DNA from: Mycobacterium sp.
GTDB taxonomy: Bacteria; Actinomycetota; Actinomycetes; Mycobacteriales; Mycobacteriaceae
Assembly: GCF_019247635.1 (NCBI RefSeq)
Contig: NZ_JAFBAR010000104.1
Coordinates: 37,777-101,776, forward strand
Direction: 5' to 3'
Length of the DNA stretch: 64,000 nucleotides
Within the stretch, counting starts at the first letter, position 1. Every line of letters begins with the position of its first letter. Under the pieces are notes generated by a model. It did no database searches, had not been told where the DNA came from, and worked only from the letters and a program-made list of their open reading frames with translations. The position numbers and the translations under genes were made by a program. Positions 3,135 to 46,836 of the stretch are shown here, in pieces.

Positions 3135-3426
3135 ATACGAGGTGGGCCGTGTGGCGCGAGGAAACGCTTTTAGCCACTGGACTAATCACCAGTTGTCCGT
3201 GATTACAGCGGTCTAATGGGGGCAATGATACCGATGTTAACAATGGTGCGAATCGTGCTGTGGCCCAAACTAAATCCAGCGGTTATCGCAGGTAATGCGG
3301 CCGCCGTTAACAATTCATCGACATCAGTGTTTGAGCCAGCGATGGTTTGGTTATGCCGAACGGGTGCGGTTTATCGCCCTGCCAAAGTGGGCGACTGCTA
3401 ACAACACGAGAAGAAAAGGAGTTACC

Positions 3427-3978
3427 GTGAAGTTCACCACTACTGCCGCTAAGACGGCTCTTGGTGCCGCGGGTATAGCGGCGGTAAGCGTTTTCGCCGC
3501 CGGAACAGCCTCGGCTGCACCGAACATCCAAGGATTCGGGGCCAGCGAATCGCTAGTCGACGGGCCATTGGTTACCGCCTACACGGTGAGCAACCTGCAG
3601 CAGAGCACCATTGCTATTCCCGGTTACACGCCGAAGGGGACGCTCTACCAGGCAGACATCACGGTCAGGTCGGACGGCGGAACCGTTACCCCTATGGTGC
3701 GAGACTTCAGTGCTCGCGGGCCTAACGGCCAGACGTACCGTCTGATCGACAAGGTCGAGGTTCCGAATGGCCTGAACCCGGCCCCGATCGCGCAAGGCAA
3801 CGAGTCGACCGGCACGCTGTACTTCGACGTGACCGGCGCGCCGCCGAATGGGATCGTCTACAACGACGGACTGCAGGACATCCTGATGTGGACGTCGAAC
3901 GTGCCGGGGTCCGTGGCGCCCAGTGCGCCGACCTCAAGCCCGGCACCGGGTGCGCTGCCTAGCCCGGCACACACCTAA
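3427..3978 (+). CDS. Secreted MPT63/MPB63-like (DUF1942) immunoglobulin-fold protein
   Basis: GTG at 3427 is preceded by GAAAAGGAG. Signal peptide VKFTTTAAKTALGAAGIAAVSVFAAGTASA. The blocks IPGYTPKG, TVTPMVRDFSARGPNGQTYR, IAQGNESTGTLYFDVTG and DILMW align with the remembered MPT63 (Rv1926c) sequence. Confidence 0.8.
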   Translation: MKFTTTAAKTALGAAGIAAVSVFAAGTASAAPNIQGFGASESLVDGPLVTAYTVSNLQQSTIAIPGYTPKGTLYQADITVRSDGGTVTPMVRDFSARGPNGQTYRLIDKVEVPNGLNPAPIAQGNESTGTLYFDVTGAPPNGIVYNDGLQDILMWTSNVPGSVAPSAPTSSPAPGALPSPAHT

Positions 3979-8960: not shown

Positions 8961-10049
8961 ATGGTCCAAGAGTTGATGTTCGAGGCACCCCGGCGCGGCA
9001 AGCCGCCGCGCCACCTGGCCGACCTCGACGCGGAGGGCCGCGCGGCCGCCGTCGTCGAACTGGGCCTCCCGGCGTTCCGGGCCAAGCAGCTTGCGCACCA
9101 GTATTACGGCCGCCTGATCGCCGATCCGCGCGAGATGACCGACCTACCGGCAGCCGTCCGCGGCCAGATCGCGCAGACGATGTTCCCGACGCTGCTCTCG
9201 CCGGCAACGGAAATCACCTGCGATGCCGGCGAGACGCGAAAGACGTTGTGGCGGGCTATCGATGGCACCACCTTCGAGTCGGTGCTGATGCGCTACCCGA
9301 AACGCAATACGCTATGCATTTCCTCGCAGGCCGGCTGCGGCATGGCCTGCCCCTTCTGCGCCACCGGCCAGGGCGGTTTGAACCGAAACCTGTCGACCGC
9401 CGAAATCCTCGAACAGGTGCGTCACGGCGCGGCGGGGCTGCGCGACGGCTACGGTGACCGGCTGTCCAACGTGGTCTTCATGGGCATGGGGGAGCCGCTG
9501 GCCAATTACGCCAGGGTGGTCGCGGCGGTGCAACGCATCACCGAACCTTCCGGCTTCGGCATATCGGCGCGCTCAGTGACGGTATCGACGGTGGGACTGG
9601 CACCGGCGATCTGCAAACTCGCCGACGAACGGCTCGGGGTGACGTTGGCGTTGTCGCTGCACGCACCCGACGACGAACTGCGTGACACGCTCGTTCCCGT
9701 CAACACCCGTTGGAACATCGGCGAGGCGCTGGACGCTGCGCGGTACTACGCCGATTGCACCGGTCGGCGGGTGTCCGTCGAGTACGCGTTGATCCGCGAG
9801 GTGAACGACCAACCCTGGCGGGCCGACTTGCTCGGCAAACTGCTGCACCGGGCGCTGGGCGCGCTGGTTCATGTCAACCTGATCCCGCTCAACCCGACCC
9901 CGGGCAGCCGGTGGGATGCCAGCCCAAAGCCGGCCGAGCGCGAGTTCGTGCGGCGGGTTCGCGCCAAAGGGGTGTCGTGCACCGTGCGCGACACCCGCGG
10001 CCGCGAGATCAGCGCCGCTTGTGGGCAGCTGGCGGCGGAAAGCCGGTAA
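8961..10049 (+). CDS. rlmN: 23S rRNA/tRNA (adenine-C2)-methyltransferase, radical SAM
   Basis: [11 protein letters not shown] is the CxxxCxxC radical-SAM cluster motif. GMGEPLAN and the C-terminal [11 protein letters not shown] Cys are typical of RlmN. Confidence 0.92.
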
Positions 10050-36959: not shown

Positions 36960-37079
36960 CTACATCCGTCGGAGCTTGAGGTAGCGGCGCGCATCCGGCA
37001 GGGAAGCGACTCCCATCAGCACCGCTGCCCCGAGGACCAACGCGACGATGCCGATGAATATCCAACCTAAGATATCCAT
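36960..37079 (-). CDS. Small single-TM protein (39 aa), hypothetical
   Basis: ATG at 37079 is preceded by a strong GAAGGAG. MDILGWIFIGIVALVLGAAVLMGVASLPDARRYLKLRRM is one hydrophobic helix with a basic tail. It overlaps the upstream gene end by 13 nt. The rest of the tracked 258-aa ORF is rejected. Confidence 0.45.
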   Translation of the reverse strand: MDILGWIFIGIVALVLGAAVLMGVASLPDARRYLKLRRM

Positions 37080-38404
37080 GTCGAACTCCTTCCAGGTGTT
37101 TGTTGAGTTTCCAGCGGTTCGATCTCGTCGGGGGAGAAGTAGAGATACCGGCCGTACCAGTCGTGCAACTCCGCGGCCGGGTCGTCGTCGACTACCACCG
37201 CGACGTGTTTGTTGCCCTCGACGTCTTCGTGAACCGAGGTGACCTTGGCGGTCTTGCCCGCGACGAAGATGTCCTGCGCATCGGCGTTGCGTCTCGGGCG
37301 CAGCCGGACCCGGCTGCCGCGGGCCACCGCGGTTCCGTTGACCAGCACCGCGTCGATCTCGGGGCGAACCGCGTTGTCGGCCAGCGGATCCCACCAGTCG
37401 AGCCCCTCGGGGATCTCCGGGACCAAGCCCGCAACGCCGTGCGGATCGCGCAGCACGCCGTGCAACCGCGCCATGTCGTCGGGCGACATCGCATCGCACC
37501 GGTCGATGATTCGGGCAGCCCGGGGGTCGGTGGCCCGCGCCTGCGCCTTCTCTTCGTCGGTCATCGTCATCACACGTAGCGTCAGGATCTCGTCGATCTC
37601 GGTGCAGTCGTACAGGGCGGTGTTGCTCTGTTCGGCCACCTCGGGATGGTCGTACAGGATGATCGGCGACACCAGCAGGATGTCCCGGGTCCCCGGCGGC
37701 CCGGCCAGCACCGGGAAGCAGCGGTGCTGGCTGCACCGGGATGCCGCACCGACGGCGCCGTCCCCCGGCTCGAGCAGCGAGACGAACTGTCCCCCAACCA
37801 CTTCAGCGATGAGATGCGCCCCGATCATGGACCGGGCAATCGCGTCCTGCTTGTCGGATGCCTCGGCCCCCACGTTGGCAAGCCGCACCGAAACGCGCCA
37901 TAGGTCGCCGTCCGGTTCGCTGGAGACCCTCAGCTCGCCACGGACCTCCTGGCGTTCGCGCACCAGACGACCACCGTCCAGGCGTTCGATGTCGGTCGAT
38001 GTGGCCGCCGCAACCGGCATCGTGTGGGGCGTGTCGAATGCCAGGGGACCGAAAGACATTTCACATTCGACGGCCTCGTCCCAGGTCAGCCACGAGCCGG
38101 ACGGGGTTTTCAGTTCGTCGACGACTTCGAAGCCGCCACCGGATGATTCGCGTTCGGCCCGGCGGTGCTGCAGCTGCAGAAACCGCACCACCACGGTGAG
38201 CGCCCGGGCACCGTCGACCAAGAACTCGGCCCCCAGGGAGTCGTCTTCGCCCAGGCCGGCCGCGGCTGCCCCGGGCGGCCCTAAAACGCCGAATTGCCAA
38301 CGGGATTGGTTCTTGCTCGACGTCCCGCGGTAGGGGTACAGCAGGTACCCTTCGTACAACACCGCGTCGGCGACGGCACGGGCACGGTCCCAGGTCGACG
38401 TCAT
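37067..38404 (-). CDS. Conserved hypothetical protein (445 aa), hydrogenase-cluster associated, no recognisable domain
   Basis: The long ORF has a non-repetitive composition. Its ATG forms an ATGA overlap with the upstream gene. I recognise no motif. Confidence 0.7.
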   Translation of the reverse strand: MTSTWDRARAVADAVLYEGYLLYPYRGTSSKNQSRWQFGVLGPPGAAAAGLGEDDSLGAEFLVDGARALTVVVRFLQLQHRRAERESSGGGFEVVDELKTPSGSWLTWDEAVECEMSFGPLAFDTPHTMPVAAATSTDIERLDGGRLVRERQEVRGELRVSSEPDGDLWRVSVRLANVGAEASDKQDAIARSMIGAHLIAEVVGGQFVSLLEPGDGAVGAASRCSQHRCFPVLAGPPGTRDILLVSPIILYDHPEVAEQSNTALYDCTEIDEILTLRVMTMTDEEKAQARATDPRAARIIDRCDAMSPDDMARLHGVLRDPHGVAGLVPEIPEGLDWWDPLADNAVRPEIDAVLVNGTAVARGSRVRLRPRRNADAQDIFVAGKTAKVTSVHEDVEGNKHVAVVVDDDPAAELHDWYGRYLYFSPDEIEPLETQQTPGRSSTWIS

Positions 38405-40609: not shown

Positions 40610-42409
40610 TCACTCCCCGACGGGCGACTGCGTTGGTGTGTGCAGTCTCTCCAGCGTCTTGCCCTTCCCCAGGTACATGTGCACGCCGCACGGCAGGCAC
40701 GGGTCGAAGCTGCGTACCGTGCGCATGACGTCGATGCCCTTGAAGTGCTCCCGGTCGTTCTCTTCGAAGATCGGTTGACCCTGCACCGCGTCCTCGTAGG
40801 GGCCCGGCGTGCCGTAGCTGTCACGGGGGTTGGCGTTCCACGGGGTGGGCGGATACGGGTGGTAGTTGGCGATCTTGCCGTCCCGGATCACCAGGTGGTG
40901 GCTGAGCACGCCGCGAACCGCTTCGGTGAAGCCGCACCCGATGCCCTCGTCGGGGACCTCGAACTTCTCCCATGTCTTGGTGCGCCCGGCCCGGATCTCC
41001 GCCAACGCCTTCTCGGCGAAGTGCAGCGCGCATGCCGCCGCATAGGCCTGGAAGTAGGTGCGCGCCCGATCACGCTCGATCGTGTTGCTGCCGTGCTGAG
41101 GGATTTTCCACTCCAACTCCACCGGAGGTTTCAGGACGGTCTTGGGCAGGTTGATCTTCACGCTGGTACCGGTCGCCTTGACGTAACCGATGTCGACCAG
41201 GCCGGCCAGTGCGGTCGACCACAGCCGGGCCAGCGGGCCGCCGCCGGTGTCCAGCGCCAGGTGATCCTTGCCGTCGAACCAGCGGGGCGACATCACCCAG
41301 CTGTACCTGCCGCCGTCCATGTCCCGCTTCTGCGGGTGCGGGTTGGTGTGCTGGTTCCACGGGTGGCGCCGGTCCACCGAGTTGCCCAGCGGGTCGGTCT
41401 TGACGAACATTTCCTGGTCGGTCCAGTCGTCGTAATACGAACTGCCCAAAAGGATCCGGATGCCGAGGTTGATATCGACCAGCGAATGGGTGTGCAGCTT
41501 GCCGTCGACCACCACGCCCGGGGTGACGAACATGGCGTTACCCCAGCGCTCCATGTCTTTGTATTCGAAGTTACACACCTCGGGGTCCTGGAAAGAGCCC
41601 CAGCAGCCGAGCAGGGTGCGGCGCAGGCCGACCTTCTCGTAGCCGGGCAGCGCGTCGTAGAAGAAGTCGAACAGATCGTCGTGCATGGGCACGACCTTTT
41701 TCATGAACTCCACATAGCGCATCAGCCGGGTCATGTAGTCGGTCATCAGTTGGATGGTCGCGACCGTGCCGACCCCGCCGGGGTACAGCGTGGAGGGGTG
41801 CACGTGGCGGCCCTCCATGAGGCAGAACATCTCTCGCGTCCACCGGCTGACCGCCAGCGCCTCCCGGTAGAACTCGCCGCTGAAGGGGTTGAGCGAGCGC
41901 ATGATGTCCGCGATCGTCTTGTAGCCGTGCGCGTCGGCGTGCGGTGCCTCGGTTTTCTCTGCCTTGGCCAGCGCGCCCGGGTTGGTCTCGGCGACCATCT
42001 TCTCGCAGAAGTCAACGCCAACCAGGTTCTCCTGGAAGATGTTGTGGTCGAACATGTATTCCGCCGCTTCGCCCAGGTTGACGATCCACTCGCCGAGGTG
42101 TGGCGGCTTGACACCGTAGGCCATGTTCTGCGCGTAGCAGGAACAGGTCGCGTGGTTGTCGCCGCAGATGCCGCAGATGCGGCTGGTGATGAAGTGCGCG
42201 TCGCGCGGATCCTTGCCCTTCATGAAGATCGAGTAACCGCGGAAAATCGACGACGTGCTGTGGCACTCGACGACCTCGCGGTTCTCGAAGTCGATCTTGG
42301 TGTAGATGCCGAGGCTGCCGACGATCCTGGTGATGGGGTCCCACGCCATTTCGACGAGTTGGCCGGGCTCCCGCTTTGATGTTGTCGGCTCGGGAATGAT
42401 GGTTGTCAT
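40610..42409 (-). CDS. hhyL: [NiFe]-hydrogenase large subunit, group 1h/5 (Hhy type)
   Basis: The N-terminal active-site motif is TSRICGICGDNH, and the C-terminal motif is DPCLPCGVH followed by a cleavable extension. The L1 variant ICGICGDNH is characteristic, as I recall, of actinobacterial high-affinity group 5/1h enzymes. Confidence 0.95.
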   Translation of the reverse strand: MTTIIPEPTTSKREPGQLVEMAWDPITRIVGSLGIYTKIDFENREVVECHSTSSIFRGYSIFMKGKDPRDAHFITSRICGICGDNHATCSCYAQNMAYGVKPPHLGEWIVNLGEAAEYMFDHNIFQENLVGVDFCEKMVAETNPGALAKAEKTEAPHADAHGYKTIADIMRSLNPFSGEFYREALAVSRWTREMFCLMEGRHVHPSTLYPGGVGTVATIQLMTDYMTRLMRYVEFMKKVVPMHDDLFDFFYDALPGYEKVGLRRTLLGCWGSFQDPEVCNFEYKDMERWGNAMFVTPGVVVDGKLHTHSLVDINLGIRILLGSSYYDDWTDQEMFVKTDPLGNSVDRRHPWNQHTNPHPQKRDMDGGRYSWVMSPRWFDGKDHLALDTGGGPLARLWSTALAGLVDIGYVKATGTSVKINLPKTVLKPPVELEWKIPQHGSNTIERDRARTYFQAYAAACALHFAEKALAEIRAGRTKTWEKFEVPDEGIGCGFTEAVRGVLSHHLVIRDGKIANYHPYPPTPWNANPRDSYGTPGPYEDAVQGQPIFEENDREHFKGIDVMRTVRSFDPCLPCGVHMYLGKGKTLERLHTPTQSPVGE

Positions 42410-42473: not shown

Positions 42474-43529
42474 CTACCAGGTGCGGCGGGCTCCGGTGGT
42501 GAGTTCGGTGCCTTTGTGGCGCCAACGCGGTTCCTTGTCGACCGTGCGCTCGGTGATGCCGCGCAGGCCGCGGATCATGGACCCGTAAAGACCCGACGCG
42601 GTGCTCGACAACTTGCCGCCGGGCGGCTCGTCCATGAACGGCATGAACTTGTCCGGGAAGCCCGGCATCGTGCACCCGATGCAGATGCCGCCGACGTTCG
42701 GGCAGCCCCCGATGCCGTTGATCCAGCCGCGTTTGGGTACGTTGCACTTCACCACCGGGCCCCAACAGCCAAGTTTGACAATGCATTTCGGTGACCCGTA
42801 TTCGGTGGCGAAGTCGCCCTGCTCGTAGTAGCCGGCTCGGTCGCACCCCTCGTGCACGGTGTTGCCGAACAACCACTTGGGACGCAACGCGTCGTCGAGG
42901 GGGATCATCGGCGCCTGGCCGGTGGCCATGTACAGGAGGTAGGTCAGGGTCTCGGACAGGTTGTCCGGATGGATCGGGCAGCCGGGAACGCAGACGATGG
43001 GGATGCCGGCCTTGCTCTTCCAACCCCAGCCAAGGTAGTCGGGCACCCCCATCGCGCCGGTCGGATTGCCGGCCATCGCGTGGATGCCGCCGTAGGTGGC
43101 GCACGTCCCTACCGCAACGATCGCGGTGGCCTTGGGGGCCAGCCGGTCCAGCCATTCGCTGGTGGTCATCGGCTGGCCGGTCGCGGGGTCGTTGCCGAAC
43201 CCGCACCAGTAGCCCTCGTCCTTGAGCTTCTCGTTGGGAATCGAACCCTCGACGACGAGCACGAACGGTTCCAATTCGCCGCGATCGGCTTTGAAGAACC
43301 AAGAGAGGAAGTCGTCCGCCCCACCGTTGGGGCCGCACTCGAAGTCGATCAGGGGCCAGTGGACGGCGACCTTCGGGAGTCCGGGCAGCGCGCCCAGCGC
43401 GATCTCCTCGACGGTGGGCTGGGTGGCGGCAGTCAACGCCACCGAATCGCCGTCACAACTAAGACCCGCGTTGATCCACAGCACATGGATCAATGTTTCT
43501 TCTGCTTTGACTGCTGCTTCTGTTGGCAT
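42474..43529 (-). CDS. hhyS: [NiFe]-hydrogenase small subunit, group 1h/5, without a Tat signal
   Basis: FeS-cluster Cys motifs are present (GLSCDGDS, GTCATYGG, CVPGCP, CPNVGGICIGC). The N-terminus MPTEAAVKAEETLIHVLW has no RRxF twin-arginine motif. Confidence 0.95.
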   Translation of the reverse strand: MPTEAAVKAEETLIHVLWINAGLSCDGDSVALTAATQPTVEEIALGALPGLPKVAVHWPLIDFECGPNGGADDFLSWFFKADRGELEPFVLVVEGSIPNEKLKDEGYWCGFGNDPATGQPMTTSEWLDRLAPKATAIVAVGTCATYGGIHAMAGNPTGAMGVPDYLGWGWKSKAGIPIVCVPGCPIHPDNLSETLTYLLYMATGQAPMIPLDDALRPKWLFGNTVHEGCDRAGYYEQGDFATEYGSPKCIVKLGCWGPVVKCNVPKRGWINGIGGCPNVGGICIGCTMPGFPDKFMPFMDEPPGGKLSSTASGLYGSMIRGLRGITERTVDKEPRWRHKGTELTTGARRTW

Positions 43530-43786
43530 GCTGCAGCTTTCCGGGGACGGGCTGATGACCCCTACACCGCCGGAGTCGATCGTCGGCCCGCTTGCGCGGC
43601 GCTGTTTTCAGGCCTACTCCCGCCATTTGGAGTTGTCAACGGTTCGCCGCCGGCGGTCTAGTAGACAGGTGTTGCACAGTGGGTTGCCCTCGGCCTAATG
43701 ACGTTGTCCCGCAGAGCATTTAGATCATCAGCAGCTGTGTCTGCGCCGAGGTCGGATCGGGCTGTCCGCAATGATGATTTGTTGTA

Positions 43787-43803
43787 CTGCAAGCGATTTG
43801 CAG
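43787..43803. promoter_or_regulatory. Nur-box-like inverted repeat 1 (CTGCAA-gcgat-TTGCAG) upstream of hhyS
   Basis: Read directly from the sequence. It lies in the 312-bp hypB-hhyS gap and matches the remembered Streptomyces Nur-box consensus tTGCaa-N5-ttGCAA at 10 of 12 core positions. Confidence 0.4.
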
Positions 43804-43813
43804 GAGCAGGGTT

Positions 43814-43830
43814 CTGCAAACCACTTGCAA
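43814..43830. promoter_or_regulatory. Nur-box-like inverted repeat 2 (CTGCAA-accac-TTGCAA) upstream of hhyS
   Basis: Read directly from the sequence. Its centre lies 27 bp from box 1, and it matches the remembered consensus at 11 of 12 positions. Confidence 0.4.
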
Positions 43831-43841
43831 CTGTGTGTCGG

Positions 43842-44633
43842 TCAGGCCGTGGCGTGGCCCGCGGGCAGGTCTGCCATGAACCGTCGCAGCCAACCGAACC
43901 ACGCCGCCATGCCGGCTCCCGTGCGGGCGCTGATGGGCAGGATTGTTGCCGTCGCGTTGACCTCGCGCACCCCCGCGACATAGGCGTCGACGTCAGTGTC
44001 GAGGTAGGGGACCAGGTCAATCTTGTTGAGTAGCACCACTTCTACGGATCGAAACATCACCGGGTATTTCAGCGGCTTGTCCTCACCCTCGGTGATGGAG
44101 TAGACCATGGCCTTCGCATGCTCGCCAACGTCGAATTCCGCCAGGCAGACCAGGTTGCCGACGTTTTCGATAATCACCAGGTCCAGGTTCGGCAGGTCCA
44201 AAGCGGGCAGTGCGCGGCTGACCATGGGCGCGTCCAGGTGACACTCACCGCCGAACCCGTTGCTGGTGTTGAGGAGTGACACCTGGGCCCCGCGGCCGCT
44301 GAGCTTGGCGGCGTCCAGATCCGTAGCGATGTCGCCCTCGATCACCCCGATCGAGAACTCGGCGGCCAGCGCCTCGAGCGTCGCCTGCAGCACGGTCGTC
44401 TTGCCCGATCCGGGCGAGCTCATCAGGTTCAGGGTGCGGATGCCGTTGCTCTCGAACGCCGCCCGGTTCGCGTTCGCCAGAACGTCGTTCTCGGCGAAGA
44501 TGGCCTCCAACACCTCGACGCGCTGTGTCCCGGTGCGGTAGGCCCCAAAGTCCCCGTGATCCCCATGAGGGCCGTGGTCATGGTGTTCGTGTTCGTGCGC
44601 GGTGCCGTCGTCGTGGCGATGAAATCGACCCAT
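43842..44633 (-). CDS. hypB: Hydrogenase nickel-incorporation GTPase HypB
   Basis: The His-rich N-terminus is HRHDDGTAHEHEHHDHGPHGDHGD. The P-loop is SSPGSGKTT, and NKID is present. I prefer ATG at 44633 (GAAAGG sits 8 nt upstream); an alternative GTG lies at 44642. Confidence 0.93.
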   Translation of the reverse strand: MGRFHRHDDGTAHEHEHHDHGPHGDHGDFGAYRTGTQRVEVLEAIFAENDVLANANRAAFESNGIRTLNLMSSPGSGKTTVLQATLEALAAEFSIGVIEGDIATDLDAAKLSGRGAQVSLLNTSNGFGGECHLDAPMVSRALPALDLPNLDLVIIENVGNLVCLAEFDVGEHAKAMVYSITEGEDKPLKYPVMFRSVEVVLLNKIDLVPYLDTDVDAYVAGVREVNATATILPISARTGAGMAAWFGWLRRFMADLPAGHATA

Positions 44634-44698
44634 TCTGAACACCTTTCACGGGAGCTTGTCAGGACGCGGACACCCCGTGCACCTGGAGGGATCCTCTA

Positions 44699-45034
44699 TC
44701 ATGAGACGTCCAGTGACGTCACCAAGAACTCGTTGCCGTGCAGCACCTCGACGTCGGTGCTGTCGCACTGCGGGCACCAGATCGACCAGGCCGACGTGAT
44801 CGCCGACTGCCGGCCGCAGGCGCGACAGCGCACCTCGGCGGTGATGCACTCGAGCTCCAACTCGGCATCGGGCATGTCCTCGGAATCCCGGACCAGGGTC
44901 CAGCAGAACGACAGCGATTCGGGAACCACCTGACGAAGAGCGCCGATCCGGACCCGGACCACGTCGACATGGCGGCCGTCGGCGTGCGTTTTGACGACGT
45001 CGGCGATGGCTTCGCACAGCGAGAGTTCATGCAC
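44699..45034 (-). CDS. hypA: Hydrogenase nickel-insertion protein HypA
   Basis: MHELSL is the Ni-binding N-terminal MHE motif. CRACG...CPQCDS is the zinc site. Confidence 0.92.
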   Translation of the reverse strand: MHELSLCEAIADVVKTHADGRHVDVVRVRIGALRQVVPESLSFCWTLVRDSEDMPDAELELECITAEVRCRACGRQSAITSAWSIWCPQCDSTDVEVLHGNEFLVTSLDVS

Positions 45035-45089: not shown

Positions 45090-46202
45090 CTACCCAGAAG
45101 CTCGCGACATCCACCTGTCCTCGATCCGGCCCCAGTGCCAGACGAGCAGCGCGAGGGCCCAGGTGAAGACGAACATGCCGACGACCACGAAACCGACGGT
45201 GTTGAGGTCGAGACCGGCAAGCCAGTCCCAGAACGGTCCCCGCCACCCCAGCTGGCCCGCGAACAGGCCCAACAGTTCGACGCTGCCGATGAGCAGGGCG
45301 ACGGCCACCGACAGAGCGGTGATGGTGATGTTGTAGTAGATCTTGCGCACAGGGTTGGCGAAGGCCCACCCGTAGGCGAAGTTCATGAACGAGCCGTCGA
45401 TGGTGTCCAGCAGGCACATGCCGGCGGTGAACAGCACCGGCAGGCACAGGATGGCGTACCAAGGCAGCCCCGCCGCCGCGCTCGTCCCCGCCAGCACCAG
45501 CAGCGCGATCTCGGTGGCCGTGTCGAAGCCCAGCCCGAACAGCAAGCCGACCGGGTACATGTGCCAGGACTTGGTAATCGACTTGGTGACCCGGCCCAGA
45601 AACCGGTTGATCAACCCGCGACTGTTGAGTTGCTGTTCGAGTTCGGCCTCGACGTACTCCCCCCGGCGCAGTCGCGCGAATACGCGCAGGATACCGACCA
45701 GGACGACGATGTTAAGGATGGCAATCAGATAGAGGAACACCCCGGACACCGAAGTGCCGATCAACCCGGTGTAGTGATGCAGCGTGGAGGAGTCATCCTC
45801 GACCGGGCCGACGATGGCCTTGACCCCGATCGCCAGCAACAGCGCGAGCCCGAAGACCACCGTGGAGTGGCCGAGTGAGAAGAAGAACCCGACGGCCAGC
45901 GGGCGTTGTCCGTCGCTCATCAGCTTGCGGGTGGTGTTGTCGATGGCCGCGATATGATCGGCGTCGAACGCGTGCCGCATGCCCAAGGTGTAGGCGGTGA
46001 GGCCCACGCCCACGCCAAACGCTTTGCCGCCCAGGCTGAGCCGTTCGGGTTCGACGACGCAGACCAGGATGATCCAGCCGATCAGGTGGAGCGCGACAAT
46101 GACCGCCGCCATCGATGCGAGCCGCCACCACTCCGCCGGCGACAAGGCATCGCGCAATTGCGACCACCGCGACGACGGGCGGGCTAGCTCACTGCTGGTC
46201 AT
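45090..46202 (-). CDS. nicT: NiCoT (HoxN/HupN/NixA)-family nickel/cobalt permease
   Basis: I chose ATG at 46202, preceded by GGAAGGA. RHAFDADHIAAIDN is the HX4DH NiCoT signature, and LGFDTATE is also present. The protein has 8 TM segments, and its 370-aa length is close to remembered Rv2856. The tracked 459-aa ORF is over-extended. Confidence 0.9.
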   Translation of the reverse strand: MTSSELARPSSRWSQLRDALSPAEWWRLASMAAVIVALHLIGWIILVCVVEPERLSLGGKAFGVGVGLTAYTLGMRHAFDADHIAAIDNTTRKLMSDGQRPLAVGFFFSLGHSTVVFGLALLLAIGVKAIVGPVEDDSSTLHHYTGLIGTSVSGVFLYLIAILNIVVLVGILRVFARLRRGEYVEAELEQQLNSRGLINRFLGRVTKSITKSWHMYPVGLLFGLGFDTATEIALLVLAGTSAAAGLPWYAILCLPVLFTAGMCLLDTIDGSFMNFAYGWAFANPVRKIYYNITITALSVAVALLIGSVELLGLFAGQLGWRGPFWDWLAGLDLNTVGFVVVGMFVFTWALALLVWHWGRIEDRWMSRASG

Positions 46203-46265
46203 GTCGGTCCTTCCAACATCGGAGAGAACACAACAGTGCCGACTGTAGGTTCGTTGCGACGCTGG

Positions 46266-46282
46266 ATGCAAGTAGCTCGCAA
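46266..46282. promoter_or_regulatory. Nur-box-like repeat (ATGCAA-gtagc-TCGCAA) at the exact centre of the divergent nicT / fur-family intergenic region
   Basis: Read directly from the sequence. Its centre (46274) falls at the midpoint of the gap 46203-46344. A further half-site TTGCGA lies 6 nt upstream at 46254-46259. Confidence 0.4.
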
Positions 46283-46344
46283 GACGGGCTGCGAGGCCGA
46301 AAGCCAGACTGGCAATCGCGGGTGTCCGGCGCGACACTGAACGG

Positions 46345-46836
46345 GTGACGTCGAAGCCGTCGGCTCTGGACCCGGCCGTCACCGAACGCATCGGTGATCT
46401 GCTGCGCGCCCGTGGGCTGCGGCGGATGGCCTCGCGGATCCAGGTGTTAGCTGTTCTCGAGCCGGTCAACGGCCATCTGCCCGTGGCGGAAATCCATCAG
46501 CGGCTGCGCGCGGAGCTGCCACCCGGCGCCCAGCTCCCGGACCTGGCGACCATTTACCGGACGGTGACCACTCTGGTCGAGCAGGGGGTGCTGCACGCGT
46601 TGACCCTGGACGGCGGTGTGACCACCTACGGGTTGGCGACCGCCCCGCACCACCATGCGGTGTGCACCCGCTGCGGCTCGATCATCGAGGTGCCGGCGGG
46701 CCGGCTCAGCTCGGCACTGGAGCACGCCATGGCGGGTAGTTCGTTCGCGCTGTCGGAACGGGCCGGCCTGACGCTGCACGGCCTGTGTCCGCAGTGCCAG
46801 GACCTGGGCAACGATCCGCGGCCGCGTAGCGGCTAG
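46345..46836 (+). CDS. Fur-family metalloregulator (candidate nickel-responsive, Nur-like)
   Basis: A winged HTH (RIQVLAVL...IYRTVTTLVEQGVL) is present. The metal-site residues are APHHHAVCTRCG and HGLCPQC (HHH plus two CxxC). The gene is divergent from nicT. Metal specificity is inferred from context only. Confidence 0.85.
   Translation: MTSKPSALDPAVTERIGDLLRARGLRRMASRIQVLAVLEPVNGHLPVAEIHQRLRAELPPGAQLPDLATIYRTVTTLVEQGVLHALTLDGGVTTYGLATAPHHHAVCTRCGSIIEVPAGRLSSALEHAMAGSSFALSERAGLTLHGLCPQCQDLGNDPRPRSG

What the first reader, a model, noticed from the sequence alone, without database searches (positions are those of the whole stretch)
43787..43830. Two tandem TGCAA-N5-TTGCA inverted repeats (Nur-box-like) in the long gap upstream of the hydrogenase structural genes
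Seen in sequence: CTGCAAgcgatTTGCAG (43787-43803) and CTGCAAaccacTTGCAA (43814-43830) lie 27 bp apart centre to centre. They sit in the 312-bp non-coding gap between the hypB stop (43842) and the hhyS start (43529). I found the full dyad pattern nowhere else in the window except in the nicT/fur-family intergenic region (46266-46282).

Established knowledge (from memory, to be verified): the Streptomyces coelicolor nickel regulator Nur recognises tTGCaa-N5-ttGCAA.

Inference: the Fur-family protein encoded at 46345-46836 may bind here and couple expression of the nickel-dependent hydrogenase to nickel availability. The boxes lie 258-301 nt upstream of hhyS, which implies either a long 5' leader or a distal operator.
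Basis: partly seen in the sequence, partly recalled or inferred. Interest (0 to 1): 0.65.

Follow-up and report, generated by a model that had tools for sequence, protein, structure and literature searches.

The report
Nickel-regulator operator sites upstream of hydrogenase
Two short DNA palindromes in front of a mycobacterial hydrogen-oxidising enzyme are real, conserved binding sites of the same kind that sit on the promoter of the neighbouring nickel-uptake gene. This suggests that the local Fur-family regulator ties production of this nickel enzyme to the nickel supply.

Summary
TGCAA-N5-TTGCA occurs exactly twice in 64 kb (0.02 expected), at 43788-43802 and 43815-43829. The nicT/regulator intergenic site (46267-46281) is a one-base variant.

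With the motif relaxed to TGCRA-N5-TYGCA, I found 97 exact matches in about 1.46 Mb of related DNA. Ninety-six lie either in hypB-hhyS gaps or just upstream of nicT; one lies in an unrelated low-GC contig. Flanking sequence has fully diverged. The variable palindrome positions do not covary, so this is a protein site and not an RNA hairpin.

At nicT the box overlaps the -35 of a conserved promoter, which is repressor geometry. At hhyS the boxes lie about 190 and 220 bp upstream of a predicted start. That start is defined by a conserved promoter and the known hya leader RNA, so the boxes are distal operators.

The remembered Nur consensus is correct. However, the neighbouring Fur-family protein is not a Nur orthologue. 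It lacks at least two of the three nickel-site histidines and belongs to a separate actinobacterial subfamily. Members only 47-50% identical again sit beside NicO transporters and Fe-SOD genes with similar palindromes.

Binding, the nickel response and the direction of hhyS control are untested; I favour activation. This is a new variant of a known kind.

The parts
43788..43802 (.). Box A, the one nearer hhyS: TGCAAgcgatTTGCA. Its centre is about -191 from the predicted hhyS transcription start.
   Evidence: Exact match. Orthologous boxes are present in 30 of 33 hypB-hhyS gaps of the clade.
43815..43829 (.). Box B, 12 nt after the hypB stop: TGCAAaccacTTGCA. Its centre is about -218 and lies 27 bp from box A.
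   Evidence: Exact match. Tandem boxes 25-27 bp apart recur in L015, L087, L090, L092, L101 and L111.
46267..46281 (.). nicT operator. It reads TGCGAgctacTTGCA in the nicT direction, and its promoter-side half-site overlaps the nicT -35.
   Evidence: A box is present upstream of nicT in essentially all loci that carry the regulator next to nicT.
46242..46271 (-). Predicted nicT promoter: -35 TTGCAT (46266-46271), an 18-nt spacer, and -10 TACAGT (46242-46247).
   Evidence: TTGCAT-N17/18-TA(C/G/A)AGT is conserved at fixed spacing in 12 mycobacterial loci. This is a prediction from sequence; no TSS has been mapped.
43611..43639 (-). Predicted hhyS promoter: -35 TTGACA (43634-43639), a 17-nt spacer, and a -10-like TAGGCC (43611-43616).
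   Evidence: The block CGTTGACA-N17-(G)AGTA(G/A)AC is also conserved in Mycolicibacterium, Gordonia and Rhodococcus loci that have no boxes. It ends 7-8 nt before the 5' end of the hya RNA match. This is a prediction from sequence.
43531..43603 (-). hya RNA (Rfam RF02992), a known structured cis-regulatory leader directly upstream of the hhyS ATG.
   Evidence: 81.7 bits against a gathering score of 56.8, E 1.5e-13, full-length match.
46345..46836 (+). Fur-family regulator (163 aa), divergent from nicT. It is the candidate protein that binds the boxes.
   Evidence: PF01475, E 4.5e-17. Orthologues 79-99% identical are found in many Mycobacterium species and MAGs, always named generically. The subfamily was analysed.
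45090..46202 (-). nicT, a NiCoT-family nickel transporter.
   Evidence: NCBIfam NicT equivalog, 617 bits against a cut-off of 450. Pfam NicO, E 1e-104.
44699..45034 (-). hypA, a nickel metallochaperone.
   Evidence: PF01155, E 1.9e-29. The longer ORF 44646-45017 is in the wrong frame.
43842..44642 (-). hypB, the nickel-insertion GTPase.
   Evidence: TIGR00073 hypB, 238 bits against a cut-off of 121.
42474..43529 (-). hhyS, the [NiFe]-hydrogenase small subunit. It is the first gene downstream of the boxes.
   Evidence: Pfam Oxidored_q6 and NiFe_hyd_SSU_C. 84-98% identical to the HhyS homologues of the 80 actinobacterial and other loci retrieved.
40610..42409 (-). hhyL, the [NiFe]-hydrogenase large subunit.
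   Evidence: PF00374, E 6e-65.

Best explanation
The two palindromes are operator sites for a dimeric Fur-family metalloregulator. The most likely binder is the protein encoded at 46345-46836, and the sites belong to a small nickel regulon.

The family motif is TGCRA-N5-TYGCA, with added preference for T at -10 and A at +10 (TCnTGCRA-N5-TYGCAnGA). It matches the footprinted Nur box of Streptomyces coelicolor.

At nicT the box overlaps the -35 hexamer. The metal-loaded regulator should therefore shut off nicT, and probably the co-directional hypA-hypB, when nickel is sufficient.

The two boxes after the hypB stop lie about 190 and 220 bp upstream of the predicted hhyS start, which itself lies just ahead of the hya leader RNA. 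I infer that two dimers bound there make hhySL transcription depend on nickel status. The favoured direction is activation or anti-repression when nickel is available, so that the nickel enzyme is made only when its cofactor can be supplied.

Shown here: the reality of the motif, its conservation, its restriction to two contexts, the promoter overlap at nicT, and the subfamily's recurrent link to NicO and sodF.

Inferred: which protein binds, that nickel is the signal, and the sign of the effect on hhyS.
For: 1. Chance is excluded: 2 exact matches against 0.02 expected.

2. Phylogenetic footprint. Of 97 exact TGCRA-N5-TYGCA matches in about 1.46 Mb, 37 lie in hypB-hhyS gaps, 57 upstream of mycobacterial nicT, 2 in Acidimicrobiia nicT/nur intergenic regions and 1 in an unrelated low-GC contig; none lie elsewhere. 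Positions beyond +/-11 carry about 0 bits. The unselected positions +/-10 and +/-1 carry 1-2 and about 0.9 bits.

3. Gap boxes are present in 30 of 33 clade loci. None occurs upstream of hhyS in any of the 62 non-clade loci. In the 19 of those checked for near-matches within 600 nt of hhyS, which include Streptomyces and Acidimicrobiia, none has even a one-mismatch box.

4. At nicT the box overlaps the -35 of the conserved TTGCAT-N18-TACAGT promoter. In Acidimicrobiia the same motif lies 8-10 nt ahead of the nicT -10, next to a true Nur-like gene.

5. Natural variants. L010 lost the regulator and both of its boxes are gone or decayed. L055 and L121 kept the regulator, lost the adjacent nicT, and still have the gap box.

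6. Subfamily members only 47-50% identical to the window's regulator sit beside NicO and/or Sod_Fe, and three of those four loci carry similar extended palindromes in the relevant intergenic regions: L156 ccTTGTTGCAAggcacTTGCAACAAgg, plus L158 and L155.

7. There is no covariation at the variable palindrome positions, which argues against a selected RNA hairpin.

8. Precedent. Fur-activated genes have their boxes about 100-200 bp upstream of the TSS, and S. coelicolor Zur activates zitB from an upstream box (PMC5472717).
Against: - No binding, expression or TSS data exist for this organism or a close relative. No usable RNA-seq was found.
- The regulator lacks the nickel site that An et al. 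consider the basis of both nickel sensing and 6-5-6 box recognition in Nur.
- The distance from box to -35 varies from 45 to 185 bp with no helical phasing. That does not fit a contact-type activator.
- No sigma-A -10 follows the gap boxes, so simple promoter occlusion is not available either.
- Five loci (L006, L012, L014, L015, L017) keep a gap box with no regulator within the DNA held, and L113 has the regulator but no gap box.
- The gap boxes always lie 12-68 nt after the hypB stop, so they could serve the upstream operon and not hhyS.
Confidence: 0.68

Rival explanations
1. The palindromes act at the RNA level. They would form a stem-loop at the 3' end of the nicT-hypA-hypB transcript, serving as a terminator, stabiliser or processing site, and would not be a protein operator.
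For: The boxes always lie 12-68 nt after the hypB stop. In the window the two boxes pair with each other into a 17-bp hairpin of -24.6 kcal/mol, z = -5.2. Single boxes with extended arms in L055, L013 and L011 fold at -13 to -15 kcal/mol.
Against: - The same sequence sits 5' of nicT, overlapping its -35.
- The stem sequence itself is conserved, not merely the pairing.
- Variable positions show no covariation: Watson-Crick counts at +/-1, 2, 4, 8, 9 and 10 never exceed shuffles, 9 of 36 sites have an A-C clash at +/-4, and only 6 of 36 pair at +/-8.
- The L006-type boxes fold at only -0.9 kcal/mol yet are conserved in four loci.
- There is no U-tract, and the terminator scan found nothing at the boxes.
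Confidence: 0.08
2. The boxes are genuine operators but are bound by a different Fur-family protein encoded elsewhere in the genome, such as a true Nur or Zur/FurB, and not by the neighbouring gene product.
For: The neighbouring protein lacks Nur's nickel-site histidines. Some loci carry gap boxes with no regulator in the DNA held. From memory and not verified here, actinobacterial Zur boxes (TGAAAAT-n-ATTTTCA) differ from some of these boxes at only one position per half-site.
Against: - No other Fur-family gene is in the window.
- The regulator and box are lost or kept together in L010, L055 and L121.
- Members of the same subfamily 47-50% identical to the window's regulator sit beside NicO and sodF, and three of those four loci carry like palindromes.
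- The divergent arrangement of regulator and nicT around a shared box is the standard layout for a local regulator.
Confidence: 0.12
3. The gap boxes are auxiliary operators for the nicT-hypA-hypB operon. They would act by looping to the nicT operator 2.45 kb away, or as a roadblock to read-through, and would have no direct role at the hhyS promoter.
For: Their position is tied to the hypB stop, whereas their distance to the hhyS -35 varies from 45 to 185 bp. The same tandem spacing of 26 bp is also used upstream of nicT in some lineages (L112).
Against: L006, L012, L014, L017, L055 and L121 keep the gap box although nicT and its operator are not adjacent. A roadblock would be redundant, because the nicT promoter is already shut under the same condition.
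Confidence: 0.1
4. The palindromes are a chance occurrence or a non-functional repeat.
For: None beyond the shortness of the motif.
Against: 0.02 expected against 2 observed. The boxes are conserved amid fully diverged flanks, and 96 of 97 matches fall in two contexts.
Confidence: 0.01

Closest known systems
Nur and the Nur box of Streptomyces coelicolor (An et al. 2009, PMC2691836; Kim et al. 2014, PMC3919588)
   Same: Both involve a Fur-family regulator. Both use a 6-5-6 palindrome tTGCaa-N5-ttGCAA that overlaps promoters of nickel-uptake genes. Diverged members of the present subfamily are also linked to Fe-SOD genes.
   Different: - The regulator is 29.6% identical to Nur. It has at most one of the three nickel-site histidines (His84, one position off His70), and Nur is not its best structural relative.
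- Position 4 of each half-site is R/Y, and T(-10)/A(+10) and the centre carry information.
- The target includes a [NiFe]-hydrogenase operon, which is not a reported Nur target, and Streptomyces hhyS loci have no box.
- At hhyS the site is about 200 bp upstream instead of on the promoter.
Fur-family proteins acting as activators from upstream boxes: S. coelicolor Zur at zitB, and Fur at Salmonella hilD and at Neisseria and Helicobacter genes (PMC5472717)
   Same: The same regulator represses an uptake gene at its promoter and acts at a second gene from a box upstream of the -35. Fur-activated genes have their boxes about 100-200 bp upstream of the TSS, and hilD has them at -147 to -219. Several dimers are involved.
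   Different: The zitB box lies only 8 nt from the -35 and contacts RNA polymerase. Here the distance is 45-185 bp and varies. Activation is my inference, not an observation.
NikR of Helicobacter pylori and H. mustelae (as summarised in PMC3919588)
   Same: The regulatory logic is the same. One nickel sensor represses nickel uptake or the nickel-independent isoenzyme, and directly activates the operon of a nickel enzyme.
   Different: NikR is a ribbon-helix-helix protein from an unrelated family with a different operator. The enzyme it controls is urease, not hydrogenase.
hya RNA motif (Rfam RF02992)
   Same: It is a known cis-regulatory leader upstream of actinobacterial hydrogenase genes, and it is present here at 43531-43603.
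   Different: It is a separate element about 185 bp downstream of the boxes, and it also occurs in lineages that have no boxes. Its ligand or function is not established.

Membership tests
Nur box (operator of S. coelicolor Nur) | Two 6-bp inverted half-sites tTGCaa / ttGCAA separated by 5 bp | tested here: met
   Both boxes read cTGCAA-N5-TTGCA(g/a). The consensus was verified in PMC2691836.
Nur box (operator of S. coelicolor Nur) | Overlaps the core promoter of a nickel-uptake gene or sodF (repressor geometry) | tested here: met
   Met for the nicT site, where the half-site coincides with the -35 of the conserved TTGCAT-N18-TACAGT promoter. Not met for the two hhyS-side boxes: no -10 follows them, and they lie about 150-185 bp upstream of the predicted -35.
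Nur box (operator of S. coelicolor Nur) | The central five bases are not conserved (6-5-6, not n-1-n) | tested here: inconclusive
   Positions +/-1 prefer T/A (about 0.9 bits) and position 0 carries none. The site can also be read as 7-1-7, TGCRAnT-n-AnTYGCA.
Nur box (operator of S. coelicolor Nur) | Nickel-dependent protection by the regulator in footprinting or EMSA | not testable with these tools
   This needs purified protein.
Nur subfamily of Fur proteins | Nickel-specific site His70, His72 and His126, conserved only in Nur orthologues (An et al. 2009) | tested here: not met
   The alignment with 3EYY gives His70->Ala85 (with His84 one position earlier), His72->Thr87 and His126->Gly141. 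Acidimicrobiia proteins from L064, L074 and L078 keep all three.
Nur subfamily of Fur proteins | M-site His33, His86, His88 and His90 | tested here: inconclusive
   His44, His103 and His104 align with His33, His88 and His90. His86 aligns with Pro101. His88 and His90 are the two residues whose loss abolished binding.
Nur subfamily of Fur proteins | Nur is the closest characterised or solved relative | tested here: not met
   3EYY ranks 16th (E 6e-7), behind Fur, Zur and PerR structures. For the Acidimicrobiia protein 3EYY ranks first (E 1.7e-28). Relatives at 35-55% identity share LVHxL...PHHHAVC...GLCxxC and none of those read has the HxH.
Nur subfamily of Fur proteins | Genomic or regulatory link to nickel importers and Fe-SOD | tested here: met
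   nicT is adjacent in most mycobacterial loci. NicO and/or Sod_Fe lie next to members 47-50% identical to the window's regulator.
Fur family (PF01475) | Winged-helix plus dimerisation domain matching the Pfam model above its threshold; TxYR recognition helix; two CxxC motifs | tested here: met
   62.7 bits against a cut-off of 23.1. Tyr71-Arg72 and Cys107, 110, 148 and 151 are present.
Intrinsic (rho-independent) terminator | G+C-rich stem followed by a U-tract, with pairing maintained by compensatory change | tested here: not met
   The terminator scan found nothing at the boxes. There is no T-run after them. There is no covariation.
hya RNA (RF02992) | Covariance-model score above the Rfam gathering threshold, upstream of a hydrogenase gene | tested here: met
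   81.7 bits against 56.8 at 43531-43603 (-), ending 2 nt before the hhyS ATG. This applies to the leader, not to the boxes.

The most novel reading that the evidence does not exclude
A widespread, uncharacterised actinobacterial Fur subfamily lacks the histidine triad thought to define nickel sensing and 6-5-6 box recognition in Nur, yet is a nickel sensor that uses a Nur-type box. In one Mycobacterium clade it would act as a direct, nickel-dependent activator of the atmospheric-H2 hydrogenase Hhy from tandem distal operators. That would be a cofactor-availability checkpoint for a [NiFe]-hydrogenase and the first transcription factor site tied to hhy in this clade.
Probability: 0.3. Interest if true: 0.75.

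Novelty: new variant of a known kind. Interest (0 to 1): 0.62.

Why it matters
How high-affinity Hhy hydrogenases are switched on is described as an open question in a 2026 paper (PMC13098282). Full-text searches found no paper linking a Nur box to hydrogenase regulation, and none naming Nur, NicT and mycobacteria together.

These boxes give a concrete, testable cis-element and a candidate regulator for a large group of Mycobacterium species, including M. kansasii, M. gastri, M. lacus and M. seoulense.

The result also bears on the accepted structural account of Nur. In that account, the nickel-site histidines explain both metal specificity and the 6-5-6 operator. Here a subfamily without that site is associated with the same operator type and the same regulon members (NicO, sodF).

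Orthologues of this regulator are currently annotated only as generic 'Fur family' or 'PerR' proteins.

Tried and rejected
- RNA evidence for the hhyS start. The window is held only by three DNA metagenome runs. Soil metatranscriptome contigs cover hhyS coding sequence of relatives but nothing in the non-conserved gap. No TSS could be mapped.
- Supplementary alignment of the Nur paper. It is not held. I obtained the Nur sequence instead from the PDB alignment with an Acidimicrobiia homologue.
- A promoter directly downstream of the gap boxes, on either strand. No TANNNT recurs at any fixed offset in 37 sites. The idea that the boxes overlap a second hhyS promoter was dropped.
- Helical phasing of the box-to-promoter distance. 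None was found.
- An M. smegmatis TSS for MSMEG_2720. No TSS was found in the papers held. Only expression ratios consistent with a separate hhyS promoter were found.
- The ORF 44646-45017 as hypA. It is in the wrong frame. My early 'hypA' tblastn identities therefore reflect DNA conservation only, and were redone.
- Distant metagenome hits with 28-35% identity (L136-L154). They are another Fur subgroup picked up through the shared APHHHAVC pattern, have no boxes and were not used.

Full report
**Observation**

CTGCAAgcgatTTGCAG lies at 43787-43803 and CTGCAAaccacTTGCAA at 43814-43830, with centres 27 bp apart. Both are in the 312-bp gap between the hypB stop (43842) and the hhyS ATG (43529).

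The strict dyad TGCAA-N5-TTGCA occurs twice in the 64-kb window against 0.02 expected. It fits the consensus that emerges from relatives, TGCRA-N5-TYGCA, which has 3 matches against 0.41 expected. One-mismatch matches to that consensus are at background and lie inside genes.

**Gene context**

These genes were checked with Pfam and NCBIfam:
- hhyL 40610-42409 and hhyS 42474-43529
- hypB 43842-44642 and hypA 44699-45034 (the ORF 44646-45017 is in the wrong frame)
- nicT 45090-46202

All of these are on the minus strand. A Fur-family gene lies at 46345-46836 on the plus strand, divergent from nicT. Further downstream on the minus strand are a NifU-like gene, DUF5947, DUF6084, hycI, hypF, two hypC-like genes, hypD and DUF6390. 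The HhyS protein is 98% identical to that of Mycobacterium ahvazicum.

**Remembered knowledge**

The Nur box of Streptomyces coelicolor is given as tTGCaa-N5-ttGCAA, a 6-5-6 motif derived from DNase I footprints at sodF, sodF2, nikA and nikM (PMC2691836).

**Conservation**

A scan of one genome per species with HhyS returned 80 loci. Eighteen of them share the window's arrangement, with hypA, a hypB about 80% identical, and then hhyS. These are Mycobacterium species or MAGs, plus one short contig (L046) labelled Rhodospirillaceae.

The distal part of the hypB-hhyS gap in these loci cannot be aligned and varies in length. Nearly every one nevertheless carries a TGCRA-N5-TYGCA box 12-68 nt after the hypB stop. 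A second, independent set of 71 metagenome loci found with the regulator protein shows the same pattern.

There are 97 exact matches in about 1.46 Mb:
- 37 in hypB-hhyS gaps
- 57 directly upstream of mycobacterial nicT
- 2 in the nicT/regulator intergenic regions of Acidimicrobiia
- 1 in an unrelated low-GC contig

Thirty of 33 clade loci that span the gap have at least one box. The exceptions are:
- L005, which has a 1-nt deletion in the spacer
- L010, which has lost the regulator
- L113

None of the 62 non-clade loci has a box upstream of hhyS. In the 19 of those checked for near-matches within 600 nt of hhyS, none has even a one-mismatch box. That set includes Streptomyces, Nocardia, Mycolicibacterium, Gordonia, Rhodococcus, Arthrobacter and Acidimicrobiia.

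In a logo of all sites, positions beyond +/-11 carry about 0 bits, so the sites are not conserved merely through recent ancestry. Positions the search pattern did not fix do carry information: T at -10 and A at +10 carry 1-2 bits, and T/A at +/-1 carry about 0.9 bits.

Tandem boxes 25-27 bp apart, as in the window, recur in six other loci.

**Protein site or RNA hairpin?**

The hairpin reading has some support:
- The boxes follow a stop codon.
- In the window the two boxes can pair into a 17-bp stem (-24.6 kcal/mol, z = -5.2).

The evidence against it is stronger:
- The same sequence lies 5' of nicT.
- The bases themselves are conserved, not merely the pairing.
- In 36 unique gap sites, Watson-Crick pairing at the variable positions (+/-1, 2, 4, 8, 9, 10) never exceeds shuffled controls. 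Nine sites have an A-C clash at +/-4.
- One conserved box type folds at only -0.9 kcal/mol.
- No U-tract or terminator-like site is present.

I give the RNA reading 0.08.

**The nicT site**

In 12 mycobacterial loci, the half-site on the nicT side is the -35 hexamer (TTGCAT) of a promoter with a conserved 17-18-nt spacer and a TACAGT -10. In the window these are at 46266-46271 and 46242-46247 on the minus strand.

In three Acidimicrobiia loci, the box lies 8-10 nt ahead of a TANNNT -10 of nicT (exact in two loci, with one mismatch in the third). This is textbook repressor geometry at a nickel importer (NicT equivalog, 617 bits).

In M. kansasii a WhiB gene has been inserted between nicT and the regulator, and the box stays with nicT. 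Regulator genes that are not next to nicT have no box upstream. The site therefore belongs to nicT and is not an autoregulatory site.

**The hhyS side**

The 73 nt before the hhyS ATG match the Rfam hya RNA, a known cis-regulatory leader of actinobacterial hydrogenase genes (81.7 bits).

Immediately upstream is a block CGTTGACA-N17-(G)AGTA(G/A)AC. It is also conserved in Mycolicibacterium, Gordonia and Rhodococcus, where the gap is short and holds no boxes. I read this as the hhyS promoter, with the -35 at 43634-43639, the -10-like element at 43611-43616 and a start near 43604.

Published M. smegmatis arrays fit a separate hhyS promoter: hhyS was induced 27.8-fold, hypB 7.9-fold and hypA 1.5-fold (PMC2799521).

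On this reading the boxes are centred at about -191 and -218. Among relatives the distance from box to -35 ranges from 45 to 185 bp without helical phasing, and no -10-like element follows the boxes on either strand.

**The regulator**

It is a Fur-family protein (PF01475). Its orthologues, 79-99% identical, occur in many Mycobacterium species and carry only generic names.

It is not a Nur orthologue:
- Nur (3EYY) is the 16th-ranked solved structure.
- Identity to Nur is 29.6%.
- In the alignment, Nur's nickel-site residues His70, His72 and His126 correspond to Ala85, Thr87 and Gly141, with a His one position before the first. His33, His88, His90, Glu101, Tyr56-Arg57 and the four cysteines are kept.

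By contrast, the Acidimicrobiia proteins next to nicT have 3EYY as their best hit (E 1.7e-28) and keep all three nickel-site histidines.

A search of 1.8 billion representatives shows that the window's protein belongs to a broad subfamily, with 379 clusters below 1e-10. Members at 35-55% identity share LVHxL...PHHHAVC...GLCxxC, and none of the 38 sequences read has the Nur HxH.

The contexts of diverged members are telling:
- P0141 (50% identical) is divergent from a NicO gene, with the perfect palindrome ccTTGTTGCAAggcacTTGCAACAAgg between them.
- P0135 (47%) lies between NicO and an Fe-SOD gene, next to an SBP_bac_5-type ABC importer. It has cTTGTTGCCAggagtTGGCAACAAg ahead of the SOD gene.
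- P0142 (49%) precedes an Fe-SOD gene with a similar palindrome.
- P0144 (47%) overlaps a NicO gene.

Nickel importers and sodF are the classic Nur regulon. The subfamily therefore looks like a functional counterpart of Nur that is built differently.

**Link between regulator and gap boxes**

- L010 (M. numidiamassiliense) has lost the regulator and the nicT intergenic region, and its gap box has decayed to one half-site.
- L055 and L121 kept the regulator, have no adjacent nicT, and retain the gap box.
- Against this, five loci keep a gap box with no regulator in the 13 kb held. L113 has the regulator and the nicT box but no gap box.

**Mechanism**

The metal-loaded dimer most likely represses nicT at its -35.

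For hhyS I favour nickel-dependent activation or anti-repression, at roughly 0.4 within the main explanation. The reasons are:
- The sites are upstream of the promoter.
- A nickel enzyme is sensibly made only when nickel is available.
- Fur-activated genes typically have their boxes 100-200 bp upstream of the start (hilD at -147 to -219), and S. coelicolor Zur both represses znuA and activates zitB (PMC5472717).
- NikR does the same for urease (PMC3919588).

The variable distance argues against a fixed contact with RNA polymerase. Oligomerisation, looping or displacement of a nucleoid protein would have to be invoked, and none of these was tested. The gap is somewhat AT-richer than the neighbouring genes, at 53-59% G+C against 65-73%.

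Repression, or a role as an auxiliary operator for nicT-hypAB, remains possible.

**Novelty**

Full-text searches found no paper linking a Nur box to hydrogenase regulation, and none naming Nur, NicT and mycobacteria together. A 2026 paper lists Hhy induction as unresolved.

The operator type and the regulatory logic are known. Three things are new:
- the hydrogenase target
- the distal tandem arrangement
- a regulator subfamily that lacks the defining Nur nickel site

I rate the finding a new variant of a known kind, with interest 0.62.

Noticed in passing
window 43531-43603 (-) and 43611-43639 (-): A full-length match to the Rfam hya RNA leader lies directly before hhyS. It is preceded by a promoter-like block, CGTTGACA-N17-GAGTAGRC, conserved across Mycobacteriales. 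Relatives show compensatory changes in the leader stems by eye (CTGCGC/GCGCAG, GTCACAC/GTGGCAC, ACATCA/TGATGT).
   Followed up: partly
window 43662-43676: A semi-conserved element reads TGCAAcacctGTCTA in the hhyS direction and is centred about 30 bp upstream of the -35. Its first half equals a box half-site and its second half is degenerate. It recurs as (C)TATGCAAC-N4-TGTCTA in L001, L002, L005 and L008. It could be a weak proximal half-operator or the site of another factor.
   Followed up: no
L141 3146-3204: In a low-GC (46%), non-actinobacterial metagenome contig, two perfect palindromes (TGCAAATGATTTGCA and TGCAAATGGTTTGCA, 44 bp apart) lie upstream of a transporter that looks ZIP-type from its sequence motifs. 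A Fur-family gene with the same APHHHAVC motif is nearby. The same box type may therefore be used outside Actinobacteria.
   Followed up: no
L064 3130, L078 986, L074 3003: Acidimicrobiia hydrogenase clusters carry a true Nur-like gene (nickel-site histidines kept; 3EYY is the best PDB hit) divergent from nicT. The same box overlaps the nicT promoter, but there is no box upstream of hhyS.
   Followed up: partly
L010 (M. numidiamassiliense) 3380-3450 and 5736: This is a natural deletion of the regulator and the nicT intergenic region, so nicT now follows the pyridine-nucleotide oxidoreductase gene directly. The gap box has decayed to one half-site (TGCAAacgccACGCG).
   Followed up: partly
L081 (M. 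kansasii) 9294-9632: A WhiB-family gene is inserted between nicT and the regulator. About ten metagenome loci (L110-L128) show a similar insert of about 1.4 kb and carry a second, upstream box at nicT.
   Followed up: no
window 46331-46347: The sequence GACACTGAACGG-GTG before the regulator's start codon is conserved among orthologues; it appears as 'RDTE.V' in read-through translations. A -10-like GACACT lies 6 nt before the GTG, which suggests a leaderless mRNA.
   Followed up: no
window 37067-38404 (-): A 445-aa ORF inside the hydrogenase cluster, between DUF6084 and hycI, has no Pfam match at 1e-5. M. kansasii has a gene of similar size (437 aa) at the same place, also with no Pfam family on record.
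   Followed up: no
window 42900-43555: Soil and rhizosphere metatranscriptome assemblies hold hundreds of contigs 85-99% like hhyS, with high word depth. Homologues of this hydrogenase small subunit are abundantly transcribed in soils.
   Followed up: no
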